DNA of 63,850 nucleotides, filler included, from Candidatus Fermentibacterota bacterium (GTDB lineage Bacteria > JAFGKV01): NCBI GenBank assembly GCA_016928395.1. It is 7 parts of 7 records of this genome, joined end to end, with 100 filler letters (N's around TTAATTAATTAA, not from the genome) between each part and the next. Parts side by side here need not be neighbours in the genome. Positions count along the whole stretch, not along the records: positions 55,981 to 63,850 come from JAFGKV010000110.1; 6 more parts are not named here. One strand, 5' to 3'. A program made the position numbers and the translations under genes. Numbering within the stretch: position 1 is the first letter of the stretch; each line of letters begins with the position of its first letter. Shown piece by piece: positions 21,255 through 63,850 of this stretch. Under the pieces are notes generated by a model, which made no database searches, had not been told where the DNA came from, and worked only from the letters and a program-made list of their open reading frames with translations.

Positions 21255-22688
21255 ATGAAGGTCAAACTCATCCTCCCTGCTTTGACTGAAGCCCGAAGCC
21301 CCTACTTCCGCCCCATCAAGTACTCACTGTTCCCTCCGCTGGGGCTGGCGACGCTGGCCAGCTATCTCTCGCCCGACGACGAGGTGACCCTGTGCGACGA
21401 GCACGTCGAACGCCTTGATCTCCATGACGAACCCGAACTGGTGGCCATTGAGACCTACGTGACCGCGGCCAGGCGTTCCTATGAGATCGCCGACAACTAT
21501 CGCGCCAAGGGGGCGTATGTCTGCATCGGCGGTATCCACCCGACATCCCTGCCGGACGAGGCGGCTCAGCATGCCGACACGGTGTTCCTCGGCCCCGGAG
21601 AGGACACCTGGCCTCGATTCCTCGAGGACTTCAGGGCATGCCGGCCTCAACGACGATACCAGTCCGCCGTTCGGAGTCTGGTGGGTGCTCCTCCGCCGCG
21701 CCGGAATCTCATCAAGCGCCACAAGTACTTCGTGCCCAACTCCCTCATCGTCTCGCGAGGGTGCCCCCAGCGATGCGACTTCTGCTACAAGGAGGCGTTC
21801 TTCGCCGGCGGGCGTTCCTTCTACACCCAGGCCGTCGATGACGCCCTGGCGGAGGTCGATTCATTGCCCGGACGACATCTGTTCTTCCTTGATGACAATC
21901 TCTTCGCCGACAAGCGTTTCACGGCAGCGCTCTGCGACGGCATGCGGGGAATGGGTCGACTGTGGCAGGGCGCGGCAACCGTCGCTGCGCTCTTTGACGA
22001 TGATCTCCTCGACAATGCGGCGGCGTGCGGAATGCGGAGCCTGTTCGTGGGGTTTGAGACCCTCAGCAGGGAGGGCCTCTCCGACCAGAACAAGGTGCAC
22101 AACCTCAACCTCGACTATGCCTTGGCAATCCGCCGCCTGCACGACCGAGGGGTCATGGTCAATGCCTCGTTCGTGTTCGGCATGGACTACGATGACGAGT
22201 CGGTGTTCGACGCCACGGTGGACTGGGCAGTGGCGCAAGGCATCGAGACCGCCACCTTCCACATCCTCACGCCGTATCCCGGTACGATCCTGCACCAGCG
22301 CCTTGCACAGCAGGGCCGCATTCTGACCTCAGACTGGGACCTCTACGACACCCGCCACTCTGTGTTCCGGCCCGCGCGCATGAGCCCTGAGACGTTGGAG
22401 GCAGGCTACTGGCGGGCATACGAGCGGTTCTACTCCTGGCGAAGCATTCTGTCGGCAGCGTACACCAAGCCGTCATGGCAGGAGTTCGCCCGGCATGTGG
22501 CCTATTCAGGCGGCTGGAAGAAGTGCGAGCCCCTCTGGGCCTTTCTGATCCACACCGGCCTTCTGGGACGGGCACGGGGCGTCTTGGAGAGGGTTCTTGA
22601 GGGATTCGGTCACAGGGATGGTGTGCGCGAGTCCGCTTCAGAAGGCGCATCCCAGGATGAATGCGCGGTCGCTCCATTGCCCATGTAG
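21255..22688 (+). CDS. B12-binding domain radical SAM protein
   Basis: PPLGLATLA, GGIHPT, RGCPQRCDFC (CxxxCxxC), FLDDN, GFE, LTPYPGT. Confidence 0.93.
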   Translation: MKVKLILPALTEARSPYFRPIKYSLFPPLGLATLASYLSPDDEVTLCDEHVERLDLHDEPELVAIETYVTAARRSYEIADNYRAKGAYVCIGGIHPTSLPDEAAQHADTVFLGPGEDTWPRFLEDFRACRPQRRYQSAVRSLVGAPPPRRNLIKRHKYFVPNSLIVSRGCPQRCDFCYKEAFFAGGRSFYTQAVDDALAEVDSLPGRHLFFLDDNLFADKRFTAALCDGMRGMGRLWQGAATVAALFDDDLLDNAAACGMRSLFVGFETLSREGLSDQNKVHNLNLDYALAIRRLHDRGVMVNASFVFGMDYDDESVFDATVDWAVAQGIETATFHILTPYPGTILHQRLAQQGRILTSDWDLYDTRHSVFRPARMSPETLEAGYWRAYERFYSWRSILSAAYTKPSWQEFARHVAYSGGWKKCEPLWAFLIHTGLLGRARGVLERVLEGFGHRDGVRESASEGASQDECAVAPLPM

Positions 22689-36196: not shown

Positions 36197-36338
36197 CGAG
36201 TCTTCATCCCCTGTGTGTCGCGAATCCGCAGTCACGTCCCACGGCCTTGAGGGCGTGACAGTGGGCCGGCACGGTGGTGCCGGCGGTCTCCATGGATACG
36301 ACCGGCCCCGCCGGAATCAGAGAAGGCAGGTAGCCTGC

Positions 36339-37976
36339 GTGCATACACCCTCCATCGCGGTGATCACTCCCATCGAAGACGGCATACCCGTCCAGGTGTC
36401 CGCCTACAAAGCGTGGATGCCCCGATACGGCAGCGTTTCGGTGGCCCAGGCCCTCAAGGATGCGGGCTATGAGGTCCGCCATTACTGCGAGCACTCAGGA
36501 AGCGTCATCGATTGGGAGTGGGTCTTCTCCTGCGACTATGTCGGCCTGTCGCTCATGACGTTCTGCGCCCGCAAAGGCGCCCAGTACGCCCGGCGGATCC
36601 GCGAGCACTCCAAGGCCCGCATCATTGCCGGGGGCTGCCATGCCTCGGTCGCGCCGGAGGACTGTCTGGATTTCGCCGACATCGCCGTCCGCAACGAAGG
36701 CGAGGCCGCGCTGCTGGAGGTGCTGGATGCCCTGGGCCACGGGGGTGATCTCTCGGGTGTGCAGGGTATCAGCTATCGCGACGGGTTCGGCCAGATACGG
36801 CACAATCCTGATCACGCCTTCATTGCGGATCTGAGTAGAGTCGTCGACATCTCTCTCATCGATGGCTACCCCAGGAATGACCCACGCCGGTTCCTCAAAG
36901 AGGCGTTCAGGCGGCGCCAGATTCCCCGGATCAGCCTACCCGTAGCGCAGACATCCCGGGGCTGCGTGCACCGCTGCCGTTTCTGCATGGTCAAGTTCGA
37001 GCTGGGATCAACCTACCGCCGCCGTCCTCCGGAGGTGGTGGTGCAGGAGATCGAAAAAGCCTTCGATCATCTTAGATCGCGCACCATCTTCTTGGTGGAC
37101 AATGACTTCACCCACGACACCGACCATGCGCTGGCGGTGCTTACGCCACTGGTCGAGAAGTACGGCGGGAGATTTAACATCTACTTCTTCAGCCGTATCG
37201 ATCTCGCGAAGAAGCCGCGGCTGCTGGAGGTCTTGCGCACCATCGACAATGTCTATATCGGCGTCGGGTTCGAATCAACCAATGATTCGACCTTGTCGGA
37301 GTTCTCCAAGGGGCAGCGCCACGGCGACTTCATCGAGAGCGTCGACACGCTTCACCGGTACGGATTCAATATCCACGGCCTCTTCATCTTCGGCGCGGAT
37401 ACCGATACGGTCCGGAGTCTGGAGGAGACTGTGGGATTCGCTCTGCAAAACAAGCTCTACACGGTGGGGTTCAGCGCCCTCTACGATATCCCGGGCAAAG
37501 AGAAGACCCTGGGCCTCCCCCAGCTCATTCCTGACCATCGCTTCATTCATCGGGACTGGCGACTCTTCACGAGCCACTTCGTCGTGCACTACCCAAGACA
37601 GATGCGGCCCAGCCAGCTCCAGCGCGCCATCATCGACGGCCAGAAGCGCTTCTTCCGCGAGAACCGGGCGACCTTCTTCCAGTACTTTCCGGTGTACGCC
37701 AGCTCCGAGCCTTATATTCGCTACCTCGAACAGGCGGAGCGGGATCTGTACGACACCCAGGATCGCCTCATTGAGGAACGGCTCATGGGGAGAACCTACG
37801 AGGATCTTCCCGACCTCGTGCCGCTGCGGGCCAGTCGGTGGGTGAAAAGCCGGGAAACCGGGGAGTTCATCCTGCAGAACGCCTTCCGCGCCAAGGCATG
37901 GCAGATGCTGTCATCCAACTTCGGCCGTCGGGGGACCGGGGCCAAACCCCTCATCCTCGGCAGCCTCCAGACGTAG
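36339..37976 (+). CDS. B12-binding domain radical SAM protein (start uncertain)
   Basis: MPRYG, GGCHAS, NEGE, TSRGCVHRCRFC, VDNDF, GFES, FIFGADTD. Confidence 0.9.
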   Translation: MHTPSIAVITPIEDGIPVQVSAYKAWMPRYGSVSVAQALKDAGYEVRHYCEHSGSVIDWEWVFSCDYVGLSLMTFCARKGAQYARRIREHSKARIIAGGCHASVAPEDCLDFADIAVRNEGEAALLEVLDALGHGGDLSGVQGISYRDGFGQIRHNPDHAFIADLSRVVDISLIDGYPRNDPRRFLKEAFRRRQIPRISLPVAQTSRGCVHRCRFCMVKFELGSTYRRRPPEVVVQEIEKAFDHLRSRTIFLVDNDFTHDTDHALAVLTPLVEKYGGRFNIYFFSRIDLAKKPRLLEVLRTIDNVYIGVGFESTNDSTLSEFSKGQRHGDFIESVDTLHRYGFNIHGLFIFGADTDTVRSLEETVGFALQNKLYTVGFSALYDIPGKEKTLGLPQLIPDHRFIHRDWRLFTSHFVVHYPRQMRPSQLQRAIIDGQKRFFRENRATFFQYFPVYASSEPYIRYLEQAERDLYDTQDRLIEERLMGRTYEDLPDLVPLRASRWVKSRETGEFILQNAFRAKAWQMLSSNFGRRGTGAKPLILGSLQT

Positions 37977-38286: not shown

Positions 38287-39702
38287 TCAGGATTCCACTG
38301 AACTACTGAGCCTTCCCTTATCACGCATACGCCGGAACCACAGCCAGGCGGCGTTGCTCCAATCGATTCTCAGCCGGGGCATTCCCATAAGGATCTTGGG
38401 CGCCTTGGCGGCATAGAAGCGGCGGTAGGCCCGGCGTTGGAGACGCCGCAGCTCCTCCCCGGAGACGGCGCTCAGGTTGAAGTAGCCGGAGAGGTAGTTG
38501 TACTTCCCGAAGTCCAGCGTCGCCGACTCTTCCGGCCCCACCGTTTCGTCCCACAGCGGCGTTCCAGGGTAGGGTGTGACGATGAAGAAGCTGGCGAAGA
38601 ACAGATCCGTGGCAACGGCATAGGAGATCGTCGCCTCCATCTCCTCGGCCGTCTCCGTGGGAAACCCAAGCATGAAGTAGCCGTTGGTCACAATGCCGTC
38701 GGCATCGGCCCAGGTGATCGCCTCGCGAACGCGCTCAATGTCCAAGTGCTTGTGGATGAGCTTCTGAAGGCGCGATGATGCGGTCTCAACCGCCACGGCA
38801 AGGTTCGTGGTGCCTGCATCGGCCATCAGACTGACCAGCTCCCGATCCAGCCTGTCGGCACGGACTCCATTGGGAAATGCGAGCTGGAAGCTCCCGTCCA
38901 TCCGGCAGAGCCCTTCGCAGATGGCCTTCGCCCTGGGCAGGTCAAGGTTGAAGATATCGTCATATACCTCGATATCGCGAATGCCGAAGCGCCCCACGAT
39001 CTCTCGCGCCTCCTCCACCACGTTCTCTGCGGATCTCGGGCGGAACTGCTTCCCGAAGAGGTTGTGGCAGTAAAAACACTGGTAGGGACACCCTCGCGAG
39101 GTGAACAGGGGAAGGAACCGGCCACGCTTGAGATTGCCGGCTCGCCCCCGGCGTGCATAGAGATTGATGTCTACCAGATCCCATGCGGGGAAGGGAAGCG
39201 CATCCACATCGGAGACGGCTTGGCGCGGCGGACCCCAGGCAACCTGCCCATCGGTGCGCCACCCAACCCCCGGGATTTCCGGCCGGTCTCCTCCACCCTC
39301 CACCGCGCGGACGACTGCGGCAAAGCTCTCCTCGCCTTCACCCGTCACCAAGACATCGATGTTCCCATCGGCGATGACATCGGCAGTGCATGCGGAAATG
39401 TGAGGGCCACCGACAACAACGGCCGTACGTCGATCTGATGCCTTGGTCTCCGCGGCAACCCGATGCATGCTGGCTGCTTCGCATGTCAAGGCGGAAACCG
39501 CCACCATATCGGCCGGAGAGGAGGAGAGTCGCTGCTTCAGGAGCGTGAACGGCTCGGGATGGCACCGAAGGTCAAGGAGCTCTATCTCGTGGCTCTTCTC
39601 CAAGGACCGGAGGTAGGAAGCCAAGTACATCAGCCCCAGCGGGTACGATATCTGCGGGACTTCTCTGTTGAAGGAAGAACACTTGACCATGAGGATGCGC
39701 AT
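38287..39702 (-). CDS. B12-binding domain radical SAM protein
   Basis: PLGLMYLASYL, GGPH, GEGE, SRGCPYQCFYC, DDIFN, FPNGVRAD, GFPTET, TPYPGT. Confidence 0.93.
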   Translation of the reverse strand: MRILMVKCSSFNREVPQISYPLGLMYLASYLRSLEKSHEIELLDLRCHPEPFTLLKQRLSSSPADMVAVSALTCEAASMHRVAAETKASDRRTAVVVGGPHISACTADVIADGNIDVLVTGEGEESFAAVVRAVEGGGDRPEIPGVGWRTDGQVAWGPPRQAVSDVDALPFPAWDLVDINLYARRGRAGNLKRGRFLPLFTSRGCPYQCFYCHNLFGKQFRPRSAENVVEEAREIVGRFGIRDIEVYDDIFNLDLPRAKAICEGLCRMDGSFQLAFPNGVRADRLDRELVSLMADAGTTNLAVAVETASSRLQKLIHKHLDIERVREAITWADADGIVTNGYFMLGFPTETAEEMEATISYAVATDLFFASFFIVTPYPGTPLWDETVGPEESATLDFGKYNYLSGYFNLSAVSGEELRRLQRRAYRRFYAAKAPKILMGMPRLRIDWSNAAWLWFRRMRDKGRLSSSVES

Positions 39703-56851: not shown

Positions 56852-57285
56852 TCTCACCGAGAGGCGCGCCGCGCTCGCTAATCCAGACCCCCCTCTGCCC
56901 AATCTCTCATCGATAGCCGTCGCTATCTCCTTGACCTTCCCCCGGTGTCTTCAGATGTTGCAGCCCATCGGAAGGTCGGCGTAGTGTACCGTTGAGCCGG
57001 GATAATGCCCCGGCGTGGCGGCACCCGGCCCTTCCGCACAAGGGGTGCGCATGAGCTGTGGCCTCCTGCTGCGATCTTTTCGATTCCCCCCCTCAGCCCT
57101 CGCTCCACCGCGGGCAGGGCTTCCTCAGTGTGGTCGTTTTCCCCCTGTTTCGTGTTCCCCCATCTCCCCTTCAGCCTGGCAGGTGCTGCCGGAAAGGAGC
57201 CCGCGTGATGAGTTCCATGCGTATGGGTCTGTACCATTCACCCTGTAGCCACGGCGCTGTGCGCCGTGCATGGAGGAGGCCTGGA

Positions 57286-59475
57286 ATGAAAGCCAGTGTG
57301 ACGGTGCTCGGGTTGATGCTGCTGTGCGTGGTGGCATCCGCGGAGATTCCACAGATGATCAGCTATCAGGGTAAGGTGACGGATGCGGCGGGGAATCCTG
57401 TCGCGGACGATACCTACACCATGCGGTTTCGGATCTACGATCAATTTGCCGGGGGTGCGCTGCAGTGGGACAGCGGTGACCAGAGTGTGGAGGTGGCGGG
57501 AGGCGTGTTCAGCGTCTTGTTGGGCGAGAGCCCGCAGCCTACGCTGGGGCTCGACTTCAGCACCGACTACTGGCTTCAGGTGACCTTTGCGGGAGTGGAT
57601 CAGACGCCCTGCCAGCGCCTGACATCCGCGGGATACGCGTACATGGCCAGCGGGCTGGTGGCGGGGACCGAGGTGATCGGGTCGGTGACGAGTGGGACAT
57701 CGGCGGCGGTCAAGGGGACGAACACGTCCACCGTCGGCTCCACCTACGGTGTCTACGGCGTCAGCTCCTCCACTGCCGGCTCCACCTGCGGTGTCTACGG
57801 CGTCAGCTCCTCCACTGCCGGCAGGGGGGTCTATGGCTGGGCTGCGGCCACCTCGGGCTACACCTCAGGCGTCTATGGCGTGAGCCACTCCGAGAACGGC
57901 CGCGGGGTGCAGGGCCTGGCCGTCCTCTCCTCGGGCACCAACTATGGGGGCTACTTCGAGAGCTACTCCCCCGAAGGCTGCGGGGTGTATGGCAGTGCCA
58001 CCGCCACATCGGGTAGCACCTACGGCGGCTACTTCCAGAGCGACTCCCCCGCAGGCCGCGCGGTGTACGGCGTTTGCACCGCCACATCGGGCGACGCCCG
58101 CGCAGGATACTTCAAGAGTTTCTCCCCCTCGGGCTGCGGAGTGTACGGCTGGGCCACGGCCACGGAGGGTACCACCTCCGGAGGCCGCTTCGAGACCTCC
58201 TCTCCCGACGGTCACGCGGTGTGGGGCTTGTCCTGGGCCACCTCAGGCGGGGCCTCGGGCATCTATGGCGAGAGCCACTCTCCTGTCGGCCGCGGGGTGT
58301 ACGGCCGGGCAACCTCAGTATCTGGCGGGGCCTCGGGCGTCTATGGTGAGAGCTCCTCCACCGACGGCCGAGGAGTTACCGGCTGGGCCTCCGCCACATC
58401 GGGTTCCACCTATGGAGGGCGGTTCTCTACTGCCTCGCCCGAGGGCCTCGGCGTGCTCGGCTGGGCCACCGCCTCATCGGGTTCCGGCTCCGGCGTTCTT
58501 GGCGCGAGCGCCTCCCCCTCAGGCCGCGGGGTGCACGGCTGGGCCACGGCCACGTTCGGCACCACGTACGGCGTCTATGGCGAGAACCTCTCCAGCGCCG
58601 GCCGCGGGGTATACGGCTGGGCCGCGGCAACGTCGGGCTCCACCTACGGCATCTTTGGCGAGAGCTCCTCCACCGCCGGCCGCGGCGTGTACGGCTATGC
58701 CACCGCCGCATCGGGCACCACGTACGGCGTCTATGGCCGCAACGCCTCCACCGGCGGCCGCGGGGTGTACGGCTGGGTCAGTGCCACGTCGGGTACCACC
58801 TACGGCGTCGTTGGCGAAAGCTCCTCCACCGACGGCCGCGGGGTGTACGGCTGGGCCAGCGCCAACTCGGGCACCACCAACGGCGTCTATGGCCGCAGCG
58901 CCTCGACCGCAGGCCGCGGCGTGCGTGGCTACGCCGTCGCCACATCCGGCGTGACTTTTGGTGTGCATGGCCAGAGCGAATCGCCGAGCGGCTATGGCGT
59001 CTACTACGCCGGTGGCCTTGCCGGCAGCGGCACCAAGAGCTGTGTGGTCAAGACATCGAAAGGCCCGACCCTCATGTACTGCCAGGAGAGCCCCGAGAAC
59101 TGGTTCGAGGACTTCGGCAAAGGCCGTCTCGTGCGTGGCAGATGCCGCATCGAGCTGGATCCGCTGTTCCTGGAGACCGTGACCGTCGATAAGGCTCACC
59201 CGATGCACGTCTTCGTGCAGTTGGGTGGCGACTGCCGGGGTGTGTTCGTGGAAGAGGGAGTCATCGGGTTCGAGGTGATCGAGCTCCAGGGCGGGACGTC
59301 CTCCGTTCCCTTCACGTACCGCGTGGTCGCCAAGCGCAAGGGCTTCGAGGCGAAGCGCCTGGACGTGTGCGAGGCGGCGCGAACGGACGGCTACCTGTAT
59401 CCCGAAGTCCGGGAGAAGGAGCGGGAGGAGATAGGAGTCAGGCGTGAGGCGTCAGGCGAGAGGCGCGAAAAGTAA
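57286..59475 (+). CDS. Secreted Gly/Ser/Thr-rich repeat surface (fibre/adhesin-like) protein
   Basis: GGAGGAGG RBS, signal peptide, EIPQMISYQGKVTD N-domain, many ~26-aa repeats (GRGVYGWASATSGTTYGVYGESSSTA), C-terminal YCQESPENWFEDFG...FTYRVVAKRKG domain. Confidence 0.85.
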   Translation: MKASVTVLGLMLLCVVASAEIPQMISYQGKVTDAAGNPVADDTYTMRFRIYDQFAGGALQWDSGDQSVEVAGGVFSVLLGESPQPTLGLDFSTDYWLQVTFAGVDQTPCQRLTSAGYAYMASGLVAGTEVIGSVTSGTSAAVKGTNTSTVGSTYGVYGVSSSTAGSTCGVYGVSSSTAGRGVYGWAAATSGYTSGVYGVSHSENGRGVQGLAVLSSGTNYGGYFESYSPEGCGVYGSATATSGSTYGGYFQSDSPAGRAVYGVCTATSGDARAGYFKSFSPSGCGVYGWATATEGTTSGGRFETSSPDGHAVWGLSWATSGGASGIYGESHSPVGRGVYGRATSVSGGASGVYGESSSTDGRGVTGWASATSGSTYGGRFSTASPEGLGVLGWATASSGSGSGVLGASASPSGRGVHGWATATFGTTYGVYGENLSSAGRGVYGWAAATSGSTYGIFGESSSTAGRGVYGYATAASGTTYGVYGRNASTGGRGVYGWVSATSGTTYGVVGESSSTDGRGVYGWASANSGTTNGVYGRSASTAGRGVRGYAVATSGVTFGVHGQSESPSGYGVYYAGGLAGSGTKSCVVKTSKGPTLMYCQESPENWFEDFGKGRLVRGRCRIELDPLFLETVTVDKAHPMHVFVQLGGDCRGVFVEEGVIGFEVIELQGGTSSVPFTYRVVAKRKGFEAKRLDVCEAARTDGYLYPEVREKEREEIGVRREASGERREK

Positions 59476-59676
59476 GGCGGCGTAGCCGCAGAACTGCGTG
59501 GCGACAGCGAGTTGGGACTGGGCTGACAGCCGAGATCAGAAAGCTGAGAGCTCGTCGCGGAGCGAGGCTCGTCTCGCGACCTTCCTTCTTCTCCGAGAAT
59601 GAGATCCGCTCACCTGGGGCGGGTGTCCCTGGCGTAGCCTGGAAGAATGGCACTATTCTGCTTCGTAAATACGAGT

Positions 59677-60957
59677 TCACGCGGCTCTTTCTTGGGGCTC
59701 GATCGAGACGTGATGGCCAAGCGATGCAAGACGCTTCAGATGGTAGGTGACGAGACTCTCGTTGTTGAGTCGGTCGAAGTAGTCCGCGCCTAGATCTTCG
59801 TAGAGTTGATGACGGGTGAGCATGTAGTAGATAGTCGCGAGTATGGAATGTGCGAGGGCCACCTGGGCGCGCTTCTTCCCCCTCCGCCGCGCAAGTCGAC
59901 GGTGTTGCTCGGACAGATACGTGTTCCGGGTGCGACTGGCCGCCCATGCCACCTGGGTCAATGTGCCACGAAGCCACCGATTGCCTTTTGTCGTCTTTCC
60001 TGTCCGCCGCTTGCCTGCGCTCTCGTTGTTCCCCGGACATACGCCCGCCCATGATGCAAGATGTCCGGCGGTCGGAAACTGGCTCATGTCCGTCCCTATC
60101 TCTGCAACGATTGCCTCCGCGCTGCGTACATCTATCCCCGGTACACTCACCAGCAGTTCTACTGCTTCCGTGAATCCCATGATGCCCTCCTCTCCCTCCC
60201 GCTCACCGCTCAGTTCGTCCGAGCGCAGCACCGTCTCGATCCGTGCCGTCAGTTCCACAAGCACCTCTCCCAAGTACTGCCAATGCCTATACAGCGTCCC
60301 CAGCATGAATCGATGATGGTCCGTTACCTTCCCCTCCAGCGCCATCCTCAGCTCCGGCAGTTTCCGCCGTAACCGTCGCCGCGCCTTCTCTGCCAGTACT
60401 CCCGCGTCGTCCTCACCTCCGATGATTGCCGTGATCATCGCCTGCCCCGATACCCCCATGATATCCGACGCCACCGCACTCAGCTTGATGTTCCCATCCT
60501 CCAGTACCTTCTGCATCCGGTTCACCACCCGCGCACGCTCTGCCGTCACCTGCGTCCGATGTCTCGTCAGATCCCGTAACTCCCGGTGCGGTCGCGGCGG
60601 TATGAAGCTCCCTCTCAGGAGCCCATGCTGTAACAGCTGCGCCAGCCACTGGCAGTCCCGTACATCCGTCTTCCGCCCCGGCACCTGCTTCACATGATGG
60701 GCGTTGCAGATCAACACCTCAAACCGCCCCTCAAGCAGGTTGTACAACGGCTTCCAATACACTCCCGTCGATTCCATCGCCACGTGTGTCACCCCCCACC
60801 CCTCCAACCACTCACCAAGCTCCACCAACTCTCTCGTCATGGTCCCAAACGTCCGAGTCTCCTGCTCCACCCCTCCTCCCTCCGCCACCCGTACGTTCAC
60901 CTTCACGTTCTGCTTGTGCACATCGATCCCTGCGCACCTCGCATACATGACGTCCAT
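59677..60957 (-). CDS. IS110 family transposase/recombinase (DEDD RuvC-like + Tnp20)
   Basis: GIDVHK, MESTG, KTDVRD, LVSVPGI..AEIG..F, CPGNNESAGK (catalytic Ser), VALAH; GAGGAGGT RBS. Confidence 0.96.
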   Translation of the reverse strand: MDVMYARCAGIDVHKQNVKVNVRVAEGGGVEQETRTFGTMTRELVELGEWLEGWGVTHVAMESTGVYWKPLYNLLEGRFEVLICNAHHVKQVPGRKTDVRDCQWLAQLLQHGLLRGSFIPPRPHRELRDLTRHRTQVTAERARVVNRMQKVLEDGNIKLSAVASDIMGVSGQAMITAIIGGEDDAGVLAEKARRRLRRKLPELRMALEGKVTDHHRFMLGTLYRHWQYLGEVLVELTARIETVLRSDELSGEREGEEGIMGFTEAVELLVSVPGIDVRSAEAIVAEIGTDMSQFPTAGHLASWAGVCPGNNESAGKRRTGKTTKGNRWLRGTLTQVAWAASRTRNTYLSEQHRRLARRRGKKRAQVALAHSILATIYYMLTRHQLYEDLGADYFDRLNNESLVTYHLKRLASLGHHVSIEPQERAA

Positions 60958-60979
60958 CTCTCACCTCCTCTGTGCTCTT

Positions 60980-61131
60980 CGCCAAGGAGGACATCGCGTG
61001 CTCTTCCATTCTGCTTCGCGCGCTCGCCGGATCCCCGGCGGCAACACTCTTGGGTGCGGTTCGATGTCCACGCCAGACTAACATCCGGGCTCAACGCTCC
61101 AAGAATAGACGGCGTCTTCCCTTGGCGTCCT
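60980..61131 (-). ncRNA. Predicted IS110 bridge RNA
   Basis: Outer stem 61120-61127/60980-60987; loop 1 closed by 61111-61115/61070-61074; loop 2 closed by 61062-61069/60989-60996. Guide matches at 61102-61108, 61076-61084 and 61008-61018. Confidence 0.8.
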
Positions 61132-61137
61132 CGCCAC

Positions 61138-61166
61138 AGTCTAGCGGACCCCACGACCATTTTCAT
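61138..61166 (-). promoter_or_regulatory. Candidate promoter for the bridge RNA/transposase
   Basis: ATGAAA-N17-TAGACT on the minus strand, placing the start near 61131 just before the outer stem. Confidence 0.55.
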
Positions 61167-61408
61167 CCTCTTCGGGCGTCGCCCCTCGGCGTCATGACGA
61201 CTAACATGAGAATAGTGTCTCTCTTGTGCTCCCGCGGGCCTCCCCTGCGGGAGTATGCCGCTTTCCCCTCCTGAGCGGCATACGACGTCGCTGGGCCGTC
61301 CCGACAAGAGACTCAGTCATCCCCTCGATGATTCAGGGAGTCGCGGCCTTGACAGTACCCATTACTCTGCCCAATATGTGGTCGCTTCAATCCTCAAAGG
61401 AGACTACA

Positions 61409-61738
61409 ATGCCCGACCAAGTTGCTCCGCTGTCGGATCGAGACCGCCACGCCAAGGGTCCGAAGGGCAGCCGGACCATCGGCATCAGGGAACTCAAAGC
61501 GCATGCCTCTGCGGTCATCCAGGAAGTGAAGCGTCGCCGGGTCAGCTATGCAGTCACGAAGCGTGGCCGGGTTGAGGCCGTGATCGTTCCGGTGGATGTC
61601 GGGGAACGGCTGCTTTCACCCTCCCCGGCGGAGACCGCGTGGGAAGAGTGGCAGTGCTTGGCGACTGAACTGGCCAGGAGTTTTCAGGGCCGCACGACGC
61701 ACTCCGCCGTTGAAGAGCTGAGCCGGATGAGGCGCTGA
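61409..61738 (+). CDS. Phd/YefM family antitoxin
   Basis: AAGGAG RBS; TIGIRELKAHASAVIQEV..VTKRGRVEAVIVP. Confidence 0.88.
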   Translation: MPDQVAPLSDRDRHAKGPKGSRTIGIRELKAHASAVIQEVKRRRVSYAVTKRGRVEAVIVPVDVGERLLSPSPAETAWEEWQCLATELARSFQGRTTHSAVEELSRMRR

Positions 61739-61739
61739 G

Positions 61740-62171
61740 ATGCGTCTGATCACGGTCGATTCGAGCGTCTTCGTGAGCGCAGCCCGGCCATCGGAGCCGG
61801 GTTTCGAGGAGAGTACGGCGTTTCTCGCGTGGATTCGCCGTACCCAGCCGCGACTCTTTCTTCCGACGTTGGCCATCGTCGAGATGGCTACCGCTCTCAG
61901 TCGAACCGGGAACGACGAGGATATGGCGCAACGCTATGCCATGGCAGTCGGCCGATTGCCGAACACGGTGTTGGTCGCACTGGATGAGGGGCTGGCACGG
62001 CAGGCTTCGGAGCTCGGATCGCGCCACAAGCTGCGGGGAGCGGATGCAGTGTACGTGGCGACCGCGTCGCTTTTTGCCGCGCAGTTGGTGACGCTGGATC
62101 GAGAGCAGTTGGAACGCGGGGCTGCCATTGTTCAGACACTGACGCCATCTGGTTTCGTCGCCGCGACGTGA
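61740..62171 (+). CDS. PIN-domain (VapC-like) toxin
   Basis: VDSSVFV, E in LAIVEM, LRGADAVYVA, LVTLD; directly after the antitoxin. Confidence 0.9.
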   Translation: MRLITVDSSVFVSAARPSEPGFEESTAFLAWIRRTQPRLFLPTLAIVEMATALSRTGNDEDMAQRYAMAVGRLPNTVLVALDEGLARQASELGSRHKLRGADAVYVATASLFAAQLVTLDREQLERGAAIVQTLTPSGFVAAT

Positions 62172-62792: not shown

Positions 62793-63137
62793 CTACGACG
62801 CTTCGGCCTCCAGTACGCGCTCGAGCTCACGCTTCATAGTGGGGACTCTCTCGGTTACTACTTCCCAAATCAATCCGTAGTCTACCCCGAAGTATCCGTG
62901 GATTAGCCGGTCCCGCATCCGCGCTACGCGTCGCCACTCGACCGCCGGGTATCGATCACAGAGATCCTCCGGAACCTTCTTCGCGGCCTCCCCGATCACC
63001 TCCAGGCTGCGCACGAACGCACGGCGCAAGGTCGGATCGGCGAGAAACCGGGCGCGTGAGAGGCCTTGGCTCTCCCTGGTGAGGTAGTCCGCCTCAGCCA
63101 GCATGTGACGAACGTATTCAAGCGGCTCGAAGGACAT
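62793..63137 (-). CDS. HEPN (DUF86/HepT-like) ribonuclease toxin
   Basis: RAFVRSLEVIGEAAK, RMRDRLIHGYFGVD (RxxxxHxY). Confidence 0.92.
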   Translation of the reverse strand: MSFEPLEYVRHMLAEADYLTRESQGLSRARFLADPTLRRAFVRSLEVIGEAAKKVPEDLCDRYPAVEWRRVARMRDRLIHGYFGVDYGLIWEVVTERVPTMKRELERVLEAEAS

Positions 63138-63435
63138 CAACTGCTTCGGCAAGTATGTGCGGACCGATGAATGGAGAGAGCGCCTCGGTGGTGATGAGAT
63201 CAACCGGCACCCCGAGGAGCGCCTCCAGGAGATCGGCGAGGGCAAGAAAGCCATCCACGCTCTTCCGTCCGGGCTCAAACTCCACAAGCAGGTCTATGTC
63301 GCTATCGGGTCTGGCGTCACCCCGGAGCGACGAGCCGAATAGTGCAAGTCGCCGCACACCCAGCTCGCGGATATTCGGTTCGACGCTCTGCATGAGCGTG
63401 ATGAGCTGCTGAGAAGGGAGAATCATCGTTTGCAT
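63118..63435 (-). CDS. Minimal nucleotidyltransferase (MNT/MntA-like) antitoxin
   Basis: LALFGS..RG..PDSDIDLLVEF, VDL; overlaps the HEPN gene. Confidence 0.92.
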   Translation of the reverse strand: MQTMILPSQQLITLMQSVEPNIRELGVRRLALFGSSLRGDARPDSDIDLLVEFEPGRKSVDGFLALADLLEALLGVPVDLITTEALSPFIGPHILAEAVDVLRAA

Positions 63436-63636
63436 GCGTCCCAACTTATGCGGCAGCCGGCTCTGGTGCCATGTCAGAGTGTCGGTGAGTTCAGCTGCGT
63501 CGAGTTGACGCCACACTCCTTGCACTCCCGGTATGGGGCATTGGCTGTAGAGATGGGACCACCTCATCTGCTTGACTCTCTGGGCCGAAGAAGCGAGCTC
63601 GCCATCGCGTAGTGGGGCTGTGCGACCCTGAGGTGA

Positions 63637-63850
63637 GCCGGGCAGGACCCCTTTCGTCCCCTTGCCTGCGTGCGAGTGGCGTTCATCGGGCAGGTGGATG
63701 TGAAGGTGGTAGGCCCCGTCCAATCGGGGAATCTGCTGGTGCCGTCGGGGATGGGAGACCGGACAGCGGTGGCGGTGCTGCGGGATGATATCAGTGCGAC
63801 GCAGTTCCGCGAGGTATTCGGCCAGGTGTGGGAGGGAAGCAGTGACAGCG
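63637..63850 (+). pseudogene. Fragment resembling the C-terminal chaperone-like domain of fibre-type proteins; runs off the window
   Basis: VAFIGQVDVKVVGPVQSGNLLVPSG..TAVAV..FGQVWE, with in-frame stops just upstream (63610, 63634). Confidence 0.45.

What the first reader, a model, noticed from the sequence alone, without database searches (positions are those of the whole stretch)
60980..61131. Bridge-RNA-like ncRNA in the IS110 5' end, with guides matching this copy's own target and donor, including handshake bases
Seen: with CT cores, the plus-strand empty target is GGCACTATT-CT-AACATG and the circle junction (donor) is CATGACGA-CT-GCTTCG. The minus-strand non-coding end folds into an 8-bp outer stem holding two stem-closed loops. 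Loop 1 has CUAUUCU on its 5' side (left target + core, 61102-61108) and AUGUUAG on its 3' side (complement of core + right target), extended by UC, which complements the donor-left GA (61076-61084). Loop 2 has CGAAGCAG on its 3' side (complement of core + right donor), extended by AAU, which complements the target-left ATT (61008-61018). Known: this is the LTG/RTG/RDG plus handshake-guide logic described for the IS621 bridge recombinase. Inference: an RNA-guided, potentially reprogrammable recombinase, probably from a candidate-phylum lineage. Caveat: I cannot find a convincing left-donor guide.
Basis: partly seen in the sequence, partly recalled or inferred. Interest (0 to 1): 0.92.

Follow-up and report, generated by a model that had tools for sequence, protein, structure and literature searches.

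The report
Bridge RNA of an IS110 element
The flagged stretch encodes the two-loop guide ("bridge") RNA of an intact IS110-type jumping gene, a mechanism known since 2024, here in a large uncharacterised branch that reads its DNA in the opposite polarity to the model element IS621 and lacks one of its four guides.

Summary
Confirmed. Window 59660-61200 (minus strand) is an intact IS110-family element: a 426-aa DEDD/Ser recombinase preceded by a 148-nt structured RNA (60980-61127). A covariance model built from relatives finds this RNA upstream of the recombinase gene in 156 of 160 homologous loci and once in the window; 25 of 29 base pairs show compensatory changes. Across the family, three loop strands track each element's own junctions: the 3' strand of loop 1, the 5' strand of loop 1 (weaker signal) and the 3' strand of loop 2. 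A 2-nt handshake after loop 1's 3' guide is real. The missing left-donor guide is missing in the whole family. Instead, the 5' strand of loop 2 is a same-sense copy of a subterminal left-end box; this covariation is robust and unexplained. Polarity is reversed relative to IS621: the CT core lies on the strand antisense to the RNA. That guide order is in print for IS1111 elements, which carry the RNA downstream. No usable expression data; host lineage undetermined. This scan has reported other IS110 bridge RNAs on other DNA. Verdict: a known kind of system, with a variant donor loop.

The parts
59660..61200 (-). IS110-family element, 1541 bp, plus one CT core copy (59658-59659 or 61201-61202 on the plus strand)
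   Evidence: Junction repeats and restored flanking palindrome. Relatives show the right end, core and left end directly abutted (L035, L122, L085, L123 in the output).
59677..60957 (-). Recombinase gene, 426 aa. Catalytic D12, E62, D98, D101 and S313.
   Evidence: PF01548 + PF02371. NF033542 'IS110 family RNA-guided transposase', 285 bits against a cut-off of 140. Alignment to IS621 D11/E60/D102/D105/S241. These residues are invariant in 25 homologues. The only PDB match is the IS621 transposase, E 1e-9.
60980..61127 (-). Bridge RNA core: outer stem P1 (61127-61119 with 60988-60980) enclosing the target loop and the donor loop
   Evidence: CM R1 hit at 60984-61120, 107 bits, E 1e-29, the only hit in the window; the window was in the seed. 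Pair covariation. P1 covariation.
61102..61108 (-). Target loop 5' strand, CUAUUCU. Same sequence as plus-strand left target CTATT + CT core (LTG-like).
   Evidence: In the family, the reverse complement matches core + flank over a run of >=5 nt in 47/129 loci, against 74/3822 in controls.
61076..61084 (-). Target loop 3' strand, AUGUU-AG-UC. Complement of plus-strand CT + AACAT (RTG-like), plus a 2-nt handshake that pairs with the donor GA.
   Evidence: 9-nt repeat. In the family, 130/137 loci match with <=1 mismatch (92 exact), against 22/2699 exact in cross-locus controls. Handshake positions match in 120/130 and 108/130 loci.
61008..61018 (-). Donor loop 3' strand, CGAAGC-AG-AAU. Complement of plus-strand CT + GCTTCG (RDG-like). 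The trailing AAU matches this copy's flank but does not covary in the family.
   Evidence: 11-nt repeat. In the family, 129/143 loci match with <=1 mismatch (95 exact) across 66 distinct 8-mers; cross-locus control 366/2755. Handshake test.
61047..61056 (-). Donor loop 5' strand, CACCCAAGAG. Not a left-donor guide of the IS621 type; a same-sense copy of the left-end pre-box.
61168..61178 (-). Left-end 'pre-box', CGCCCGAAGAG. Covaries in the same sense with the donor loop 5' strand.
   Evidence: Longest common substring: own mean 5.83, cross-locus 4.10. Identity 0.76-0.92 against an expected 0.33-0.54. 43 matched co-changes in 63 independent pairs.
61159..61166 (-). ATGAAAAT box. Its GAAAAT is the inverted repeat of ATTTTC near the right end of relatives (ATTTAC in this copy, 59665-59670).
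   Evidence: Found about 180-255 nt upstream of the start codon in 76 of 80 genome loci and in the window. Right ends listed.
61177..61194 (-). Left-end palindrome or hairpin; its sequence varies but its pairing is kept
   Evidence: Mean MFE -6.96 against -3.90 for shuffles; 67% against 23% at <= -6 kcal/mol; n=104.
59643..59659 (+). Left half of the target palindrome, including the CT core (59658-59659)
   Evidence: Inverted repeat I2.
61201..61225 (+). Second CT core copy and the right half of the target palindrome

Best explanation
Window 59660-61200 is an intact IS110-family insertion sequence. Its 5' non-coding end encodes a bridge RNA (60980-61127, minus strand). The RNA has an outer stem enclosing two internal loops.

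Loop 1 is the target loop. Its 5' strand (CUAUU-CU) has the sequence of the plus-strand left target plus core, so it would pair with the opposite strand. Its 3' strand (AUGUU-AG) pairs with plus-strand core plus right target. It is followed by two handshake bases (UC) that pair with the last two donor bases (GA) after strand exchange.

Loop 2 is the donor loop. Its 3' strand (CGAAGC-AG) pairs with plus-strand CT + GCTTCG. That sequence is the recombinase-distal end of the element as it appears in the circle junction.

The DEDD/Ser recombinase would use this RNA to recombine the circular form into CTATT-CT-AACAT, a palindromic intergenic site.

Shown here: the anatomy, the conserved structure, guide-junction covariation across about 130-140 related elements, and an intact catalytic set.

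Inferred from IS621 and seekRNA work: RNA expression, RNA binding by the recombinase, and the chemistry of recombination.

Two differences from IS621 were shown. First, the CT core is on the strand antisense to the RNA and recombinase gene, so the 'right target' abuts the RNA-proximal end. Second, there is no left-donor guide next to the core. The donor loop's 5' strand instead copies a box 23-33 nt inside the left end.
For: Recombinase: PF01548 + PF02371, NF033542, catalytic residues aligned to IS621 and invariant in 25 homologues.

RNA: the RNAalifold consensus shows two stem-closed loops. CM R1 hits 156 of 160 loci, 122 of them not in the seed; the 4 misses (L009, L039, L067, L146) were not examined further, and at least three have little or no sequence upstream of the gene. 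R1 hits the 63.85-kb window once. On alignment A4, 96.4% of cells are paired, 25/29 pairs show double changes, 0/500 shuffles reach the observed score, and slid controls give 23-54% paired. The outer stem covaries.

Guides: the exact 11-nt and 9-nt junction repeats are in this copy. In the family, the loop-2 3' strand matches the element's own right end + core in 129/143 loci with <=1 mismatch (95 exact), against 366/2755 cross-locus. The loop-1 3' strand matches its own left junction in 130/137 loci (92 exact), against 22/2699 exact cross-locus. The loop-1 5' strand matches in 47/129 loci against 74/3822.

Core, read in the gene's sense: AG 111, AA 14, AT 3, AC 1 of 129. On the other strand this is CT/TT/AT/GT, with the T invariant. 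That fits the core preference reported for IS621 (PMC11208158, passages read).
Against: There is no evidence that the RNA is made. No sigma-70-type promoter was found in the integrated copy. The RNA-library contigs that match do not cover 60984-61120 and cannot show strand.

The junctions in relatives were located with the guides themselves. The per-position identities near 1.0 are therefore partly circular; the cross-locus controls and the abutted right-end/left-end junctions are the independent support.

The loop-1 5' strand matches its flank in only about a third of loci.

One defining IS621 guide (the LDG) is absent. R1 does not detect the IS621 bridge RNA and Rfam has no matching family. 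Homology of the RNA to IS621's is therefore inferred from architecture, not from sequence.

Only one copy is visible and no genome is held, so recent activity is not shown.
Confidence: 0.9

Rival explanations
1. The structured region is only the 5' leader of the recombinase mRNA. It would regulate translation or block read-through, and the matches to the junctions would be incidental or would reflect protein-recognised terminal repeats.
For: The structure lies directly upstream of the ribosome-binding site and start codon. No separate promoter or terminator was found. An RNA-library contig spans the left junction (61134-61284), which is compatible with read-through from outside.
Against: A leader role does not explain why loop strands change in step with each element's own flanks and ends across 66 distinct donor 8-mers. 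It also does not explain why the flank bases, which are host DNA, are copied in the loop. The stems covary while the loops carry the junction sequences.
Confidence: 0.03
2. It is a bridge RNA, but this copy is an inactive relic: a fossil insertion whose guides merely record an old event.
For: Only one copy is in the window and no genome is available for counting copies. The right-end inverted repeat is ATTTAC rather than the family's ATTTTC. The pre-box/loop match is imperfect in this copy: one mismatch and one extra base.
Against: The open reading frame is full length, with all five catalytic residues. Target guides match the flanks at 7/7 and 7/7 positions, and the donor guide at 8/8. The RNA scores 107 bits, in the upper part of the family range.
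Confidence: 0.1
3. The open frame across the region (60903-61307, 134 aa, containing the conserved ATGAAAAT as Met-Lys-Met) encodes a small protein rather than an RNA.
For: An ORF is listed there, and ATGAAAAT is nearly invariant.
Against: Relatives differ by insertions and deletions of many lengths in this region, and conservation follows base pairs, not codons.
Confidence: 0.01

Closest known systems
IS621 bridge recombinase and bridge RNA of E. coli (Durrant 2024, PMC11208160; Hiraizumi 2024, PMC11208158; Hiraizumi 2026, PMC13626964)
   Same: A DEDD/Ser recombinase with the RNA encoded upstream in the left end. Two stem-closed internal loops. A 5' strand ending in CU with the sequence of left target + core. 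A 3' strand ending in AG that pairs with core + right side, followed by a 2-nt handshake. A CT core with an invariant T.
   Different: In a real IS621 copy (E. coli W), CT is on the RNA-sense strand and the left target abuts the RNA-proximal end. Here the sense strand reads AG and the arrangement is reversed. The recombinase has 426 aa against 326, at 27-30% identity over the aligned parts. An outer stem encloses both loops. There is no LDG next to the core. The donor loop 5' strand copies a subterminal left-end box. The loop-2 handshake does not covary. The RNA model does not cross-detect the IS621 bridge RNA.
IS1111-group seekRNA elements: ISEc11, ISPa11, ISKpn4 (Siddiquee 2024, PMC11187229; abstract and sections 6, 9 and 12 read)
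   Same: The order of target matches: the segment complementary to the sense ('top') strand lies 5' of the one complementary to the bottom strand. That paper reports this order as reversed between IS1111 and IS110 types. Subterminal inverted repeats are present (here 6 bp, ATTTTC/GAAAAT).
   Different: There the RNA lies downstream of the gene and the transposases have 330-350 aa. Here the RNA is upstream and the protein has 426 aa. The paper notes a few exceptions with an upstream non-coding region (for example ISMtsp17).
ISEc21 (IS110 type with upstream seekRNA; same paper) and the IS110-proper subgroup (transposases of 395-455 aa)
   Same: Upstream non-coding region. The protein length falls in the range given for the subgroup that includes IS110 itself.
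   Different: ISEc21 has the IS621 order (bottom-strand match 5', top-strand match 3'). Membership of the IS110-proper subgroup was not tested by a tree.

Membership tests
IS110-family DEDD recombinase (bridge recombinase) | N-terminal RuvC-like DEDD domain plus C-terminal Tnp domain | tested here: met
   PF01548 (97.6 bits) and PF02371 (78.6 bits). NF033542, 285 bits against a cut-off of 140.
IS110-family DEDD recombinase (bridge recombinase) | Catalytic D, E, D, D and Ser in the G-x-x-P-x-x-x-x-S motif | tested here: met
   D12, E62, D98, D101 and S313 align with IS621 D11, E60, D102, D105 and S241. They are invariant in 25 homologues.
Bridge RNA (IS621 type) | Non-coding RNA next to the recombinase gene with two internal loops closed by stems | tested here: met
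   29 pairs, 25 with compensatory changes, 0/500 shuffles reach the observed score.
Bridge RNA (IS621 type) | Target loop: the 5' strand equals left target + core; the 3' strand is complementary to core + right target | tested here: met
   This copy matches 7/7 and 7/7. Family covariation.
Bridge RNA (IS621 type) | Donor loop 3' strand complementary to core + right donor | tested here: met
   8/8 in this copy. 129/143 loci with <=1 mismatch, against 366/2755 cross-locus.
Bridge RNA (IS621 type) | Donor loop 5' strand equals left donor + core (LDG) | tested here: not met
   The reverse complement of core + the first 12 left-end bases finds no better match in the element's own RNA than in other loci's RNA (114 loci).
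Bridge RNA (IS621 type) | Handshake bases 3' of the RTG and the RDG | tested here: inconclusive
   Loop 1: met (120/130 and 108/130). Loop 2: position 1 only weakly (63/129 against 0.38); positions 2-3 at background.
Bridge RNA (IS621 type) | CT core on the RNA-sense strand, with the left target next to the RNA-proximal end | tested here: not met
   IS621 in E. coli W reads CT at both ends in the sense orientation. This family reads AG in 111/129 loci.
Bridge RNA (IS621 type) | Detectable homology of the RNA to the IS621 bridge RNA or to a curated family | tested here: not met
   R1 with filters off gives no hit on the IS621 left end; best E is 0.52, elsewhere. No Rfam match.
Bridge RNA (IS621 type) | RNA expressed (junction promoter) and bound by the recombinase | not testable with these tools
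   No consensus promoter in the integrated copy. RNA-library contigs are uninformative.
IS1111 group / seekRNA | Non-coding RNA region downstream of the transposase gene | tested here: not met
   The right end is only 17 nt (59660-59676). The RNA is upstream.
IS1111 group / seekRNA | The sense-strand ('top') match lies 5' of the bottom-strand match | tested here: met
   The loop-1 5' strand is complementary to the sense strand and the 3' strand is identical to it. The criterion is from PMC11187229, sections 9 and 12.
IS1111 group / seekRNA | Subterminal inverted repeats of 7-17 bp; transposase of 330-350 aa | tested here: not met
   The inverted repeat is 6 bp (5/6 in this copy) and asymmetrically placed. 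The protein has 426 aa.

The most novel reading that the evidence does not exclude
In this large branch of IS110 elements, donor recognition differs from IS621. There is no guide for the donor half next to the core. Instead, the 5' strand of the donor loop would base-pair with the antisense strand of a box 23-33 nt inside the left end. That box sits between a conserved hairpin and the subterminal inverted repeat. This would be a displaced guide of opposite strand polarity. It could tether the left end, or it could feed back on the adjacent -10-like GAAAAT promoter element. If so, reprogramming donors in this branch would follow different rules.
Probability: 0.35. Interest if true: 0.65.

Novelty: new variant of a known kind. 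Interest (0 to 1): 0.5.

Why it matters
Bridge recombinases are being developed as programmable genome-rearrangement tools, and the rules come almost entirely from IS621 and close relatives. This element belongs to an abundant environmental branch: 8000 database proteins passed E <= 0.001, which was the search's own cap, and the listed relatives are 56-68% identical. In this branch three of the four guides can be read directly. The fourth guide is replaced by something else, and the site polarity relative to the RNA gene is reversed. The 2-nt handshake is unusually clear: covariation at both positions. If the subterminal box pairing is functional, it defines a second way for a bridge RNA to recognise its own element. 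For the genome itself this is an ordinary insertion into an intergenic palindrome, next to a Phd/PIN toxin-antitoxin pair.

Tried and rejected
1. Whole-genome copy count: no genome is held for this window.

2. Rfam: only a chance lncRNA match at E 6.1.

3. Empty target site elsewhere in the window: 0 matches with up to 3 mismatches.

4. Expression. RNA-library runs X1-X3 and run X4 (library kind not on record), all laid as contigs. X1 and X3 cover parts of the recombinase gene with 3-5 differences. One X2 contig is identical over 61134-61284. Only the X4 contig covers any of 60984-61120 (60895-61106, with 14 differences and one gap). Contigs show neither strand nor ends, so nothing follows for or against transcription.

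5. Promoter and terminator scan of 59550-61350: none found. GAAAAT as a -10 element is only a guess, based on its position about 38 nt before the outer stem.

6. IS621-type left-donor guide: no signal.

7. An RNA partner complementary to the donor loop 5' strand anywhere on the element's sense strand: own matches are no better than cross-locus.

8. Loop-2 handshake against the flank and against the target guide: at background.

9. Position-by-position test of the loop-1 5' strand: blurred by 1-nt register differences between sub-branches. The offset-tolerant run-length test was used instead.

10. Host lineage from BipA: the nearest atlas clusters are Gemmatimonadota and Pseudomonadota, which is uninformative.

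11. Earlier scan notes near this place: none.

12. Supplementary tables of PMC11208160 and PMC11187229 (lists and folds of predicted bridge and seek RNAs) could not be seen. They may already include this branch.

13. Literature. Together with the sections and passages I read, they showed no description of a subterminal box copied in the donor loop. That is a limited search, not proof of absence.

Full report
**What is there**

The minus strand of window 59677-60957 encodes a 426-aa protein with the two Pfam domains of IS110 transposases (PF01548, PF02371). It also matches NCBIfam NF033542, 'IS110 family RNA-guided transposase', at 285 bits against a cut-off of 140. Its only relative with a solved structure is the IS621 transposase. 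Aligned to a real IS621 protein from E. coli W, residues D12, E62, D98, D101 and S313 correspond to the IS621 catalytic D11, E60, D102, D105 and S241. All five are invariant in 25 homologues.

The element runs from 59660 to 61200. On the plus strand it reads GGCACTATT-CT-[GCTTCG ... CATGACGA]-CT-AACATG. Taking it out together with one CT restores a palindrome, CACTATTCT / 6 nt / AGAATAGTG (pair I2). This palindrome lies between an 805-aa repeat-protein ORF and a Phd/YefM-PIN pair.

**Checking the observation**

The repeat finder independently reports two exact direct repeats. One is 11 nt, at 59655-59665 and 61008-61018. The other is 9 nt, at 61076-61084 and 61199-61207.

The outer stem is 61127-61119 with 60988-60980. 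Single-sequence folding energy is not distinctive, so the case for structure has to rest on relatives.

**Relatives and structure**

The listed hits are 56-68% identical. I fetched 80 loci from species genomes and 80 from metagenomes.

Their upstream regions align over about 200 nt. RNAalifold on 35 of them gives two stem-closed internal loops. A covariance model (R1, 136 positions, 29 pairs) was built from 35 sequences that included the window. It finds a full-length match directly upstream of the gene in 156 of 160 loci, 122 of which were not in the seed. I did not examine the four misses (L009, L039, L067, L146) further; at least three have little or no upstream sequence. R1 hits the window once, on either strand.

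On the 99-match alignment:
- 96.4% of cells are paired;
- 25 of 29 pairs have changes on both sides;
- 0 of 500 shuffles reach the observed values;
- sliding the partners by 1-3 columns drops pairing to 23-54%.

That alignment was fitted to the model, which favours the structure. The independent RNAalifold result shows the same helices.

The outer stem lies outside the model. Its own-locus duplexes average -20.0 kcal/mol against -10.9 for cross-locus pairs (n=138, p=1e-63).

**Do the loops track the junctions?**

- Donor loop, 3' strand. The first 8 nt equal the last 6 nt of the element's own right end plus the 2-nt core in 129 of 143 loci at <=1 mismatch (95 exact). There are 66 different 8-mers. 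Cross-locus pairs with a different guide reach this in 366 of 2755 cases.
- Target loop, 3' strand. A 7-mer (5 flank bases plus core) matches the locus's own left junction in 130 of 137 loci (92 exact), against 22 of 2699 exact cross-locus.
- Target loop, 5' strand. Its reverse complement matches core plus right flank over a run of >=5 nt in 47 of 129 loci, against 74 of 3822 controls. This signal is real but weaker, partly because the register differs by one base between sub-branches.

These junctions were located with the guides, so the controls carry the argument rather than the raw identities. Independent support comes from loci in which a right end, the core and a left end abut directly (L035, L122, L085 and L123 in the output), and from the restored palindrome in the window.

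**Handshake bases**

The two bases after the core in the target loop's 3' strand equal the first two bases of the left end in 120/130 and 108/130 loci. Cross-locus expectation is 0.58 and 0.31. The third base is at background: 23/130 against 0.19.

The AAU after the donor guide is different:
- Position 1 is an A in 113 of 129 loci and matches the flank in 63/129, against 0.38 cross-locus.
- Positions 2 and 3 match in 37/129 and 28/129, against 0.24 and 0.21.
- Position 3 is a U in 127/129 loci and forms a G-U pair in a covarying 3-bp helix.
- There is no internal agreement with the target guide either.

The 3-nt match in this copy is therefore real, but I cannot distinguish it from chance plus a fixed A.

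**Polarity**

Read in the sense of the gene, the core is AG in 111, AA in 14, AT in 3 and AC in 1 of 129 loci. On the other strand that is CT/TT/AT/GT, with the T invariant.

I fetched a real IS621 copy from E. coli W, annotated 'IS110-like element IS621 family transposase'. In the sense orientation it reads ...caggc-ct-tgtatt... at the RNA-proximal end and ...acagtat-ct-acgtg... at the distal end. So in IS621 the CT strand is the RNA-sense strand.

The RNA itself is laid out exactly as in IS621: the 5' strand ends in CU, the 3' strand ends in AG, and two handshake bases follow. Here, however, the DNA strand it reads is antisense to the RNA gene. As a result, the junction that IS621 nomenclature calls the right half lies at the RNA-proximal end.

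Siddiquee et al. report that the order of top-strand and bottom-strand matches is reversed between IS1111-type and IS110-type seekRNAs (PMC11187229; abstract and sections 9 and 12 read). This family has the IS1111 order, but with an upstream RNA and a 426-aa protein. I saw only that note's summary. My own test was done on this family, not on that note's DNA.

**The missing left-donor guide**

Neither could I, in 114 loci. The reverse complement of core plus the first 12 left-end bases matches the locus's own RNA no better than another locus's RNA.

What the 5' strand of the donor loop does carry is a same-sense copy of a 10-11-nt 'pre-box'. The pre-box lies immediately upstream of an almost invariant ATGAAAAT, about 23-33 nt inside the left end. 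The evidence:
- Longest common substring: own mean 5.83 against 4.10 cross-locus; the reverse-complement control is much lower.
- Column identities of 0.76-0.92 against an expected 0.33-0.54, with MI of 0.6-0.9. The anchor here is the box motif, not a guide.
- In 63 nearest-neighbour pairs, 83 positions differed in the RNA. The pre-box carried the same two letters at 43 of them, changed otherwise at 17 and did not change at 23.

No complementary partner exists elsewhere on the element's sense strand. The only covarying complement is therefore the antisense strand of the pre-box DNA.

Two further features frame this. Between the left terminus and the pre-box lies a palindrome whose sequence varies but whose pairing is kept. 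The GAAAAT of the box is the inverted repeat of ATTTTC, which sits 5-6 nt from the core at the right end.

The strand polarity of this pairing is opposite to what an IS621-type left-donor guide would need, whichever strand is called top. I therefore record it as unexplained. My leading hypothesis is a displaced donor contact (an R-loop). The alternative is feedback on the adjacent promoter-like element.

**Expression and host**

No consensus promoter or terminator was found in the integrated copy. Public metatranscriptome contigs touch the element but not the RNA core. They cannot show strand. The host lineage could not be determined.

**Verdict**

The finding is a correct reading of a bridge RNA, a kind of system known since 2024 and already reflected in NCBI's family name. 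This scan has reported other IS110 and IS1111 bridge RNAs on other DNA. What is not ordinary is the donor loop of this branch, together with the IS1111-type polarity combined with an upstream RNA. I found neither described for such elements in the searches and sections listed, but the supplements that might hold them were closed.

Noticed in passing
L002, L004, L008, L085, L014 and others (left flanks); L035, L122, L085, L123, L153 (downstream of the gene); L056 and L111 (two RNA-model hits each): In 22 of 130 related loci the left flank looks like the right end of a sibling element (xTTTTC + 5-6 nt + AG). Several loci show a right end, the core and a left end directly abutted. These may be head-to-tail tandem copies, elements whose target guide is aimed at a sibling's end, or circle junctions captured by assembly.
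   Followed up: partly
window 61400-61738 and 61740-62171 (+): Phd/YefM antitoxin and PIN-domain toxin pair immediately beside the insertion.
   Followed up: partly
window 57058-59475 (+): An 805-aa ORF made largely of GVYG/ATSG-type repeats. It ends about 180 nt before the element. The target palindrome could be its terminator. No terminator-like site was called, with the element in place.
   Followed up: no
window 21255-22688, 36213-37976, 38287-39702: Three B12-binding radical SAM proteins in one window.
   Followed up: no
window 62793-63287 and 63118-63723 (-): Two overlapping-end ORFs whose motifs I recall as a HEPN (DUF86) / nucleotidyltransferase toxin-antitoxin pair. This is from reading the translations only and was not tested.
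   Followed up: no
window 61134-61284: A 151-nt contig from an RNA-library run (X2) is identical to the window and spans the left junction of the element. The same insertion therefore exists in that sample. Strand and RNA origin are unknown.
   Followed up: partly
L075 and L077 (Alicyclobacillus fastidiosus chromosome and plasmid), L047, L078, L079: Members of this RNA/recombinase family occur in cultured strains with complete genomes. These would be convenient for copy counts, empty-site comparisons and experiments.
   Followed up: no
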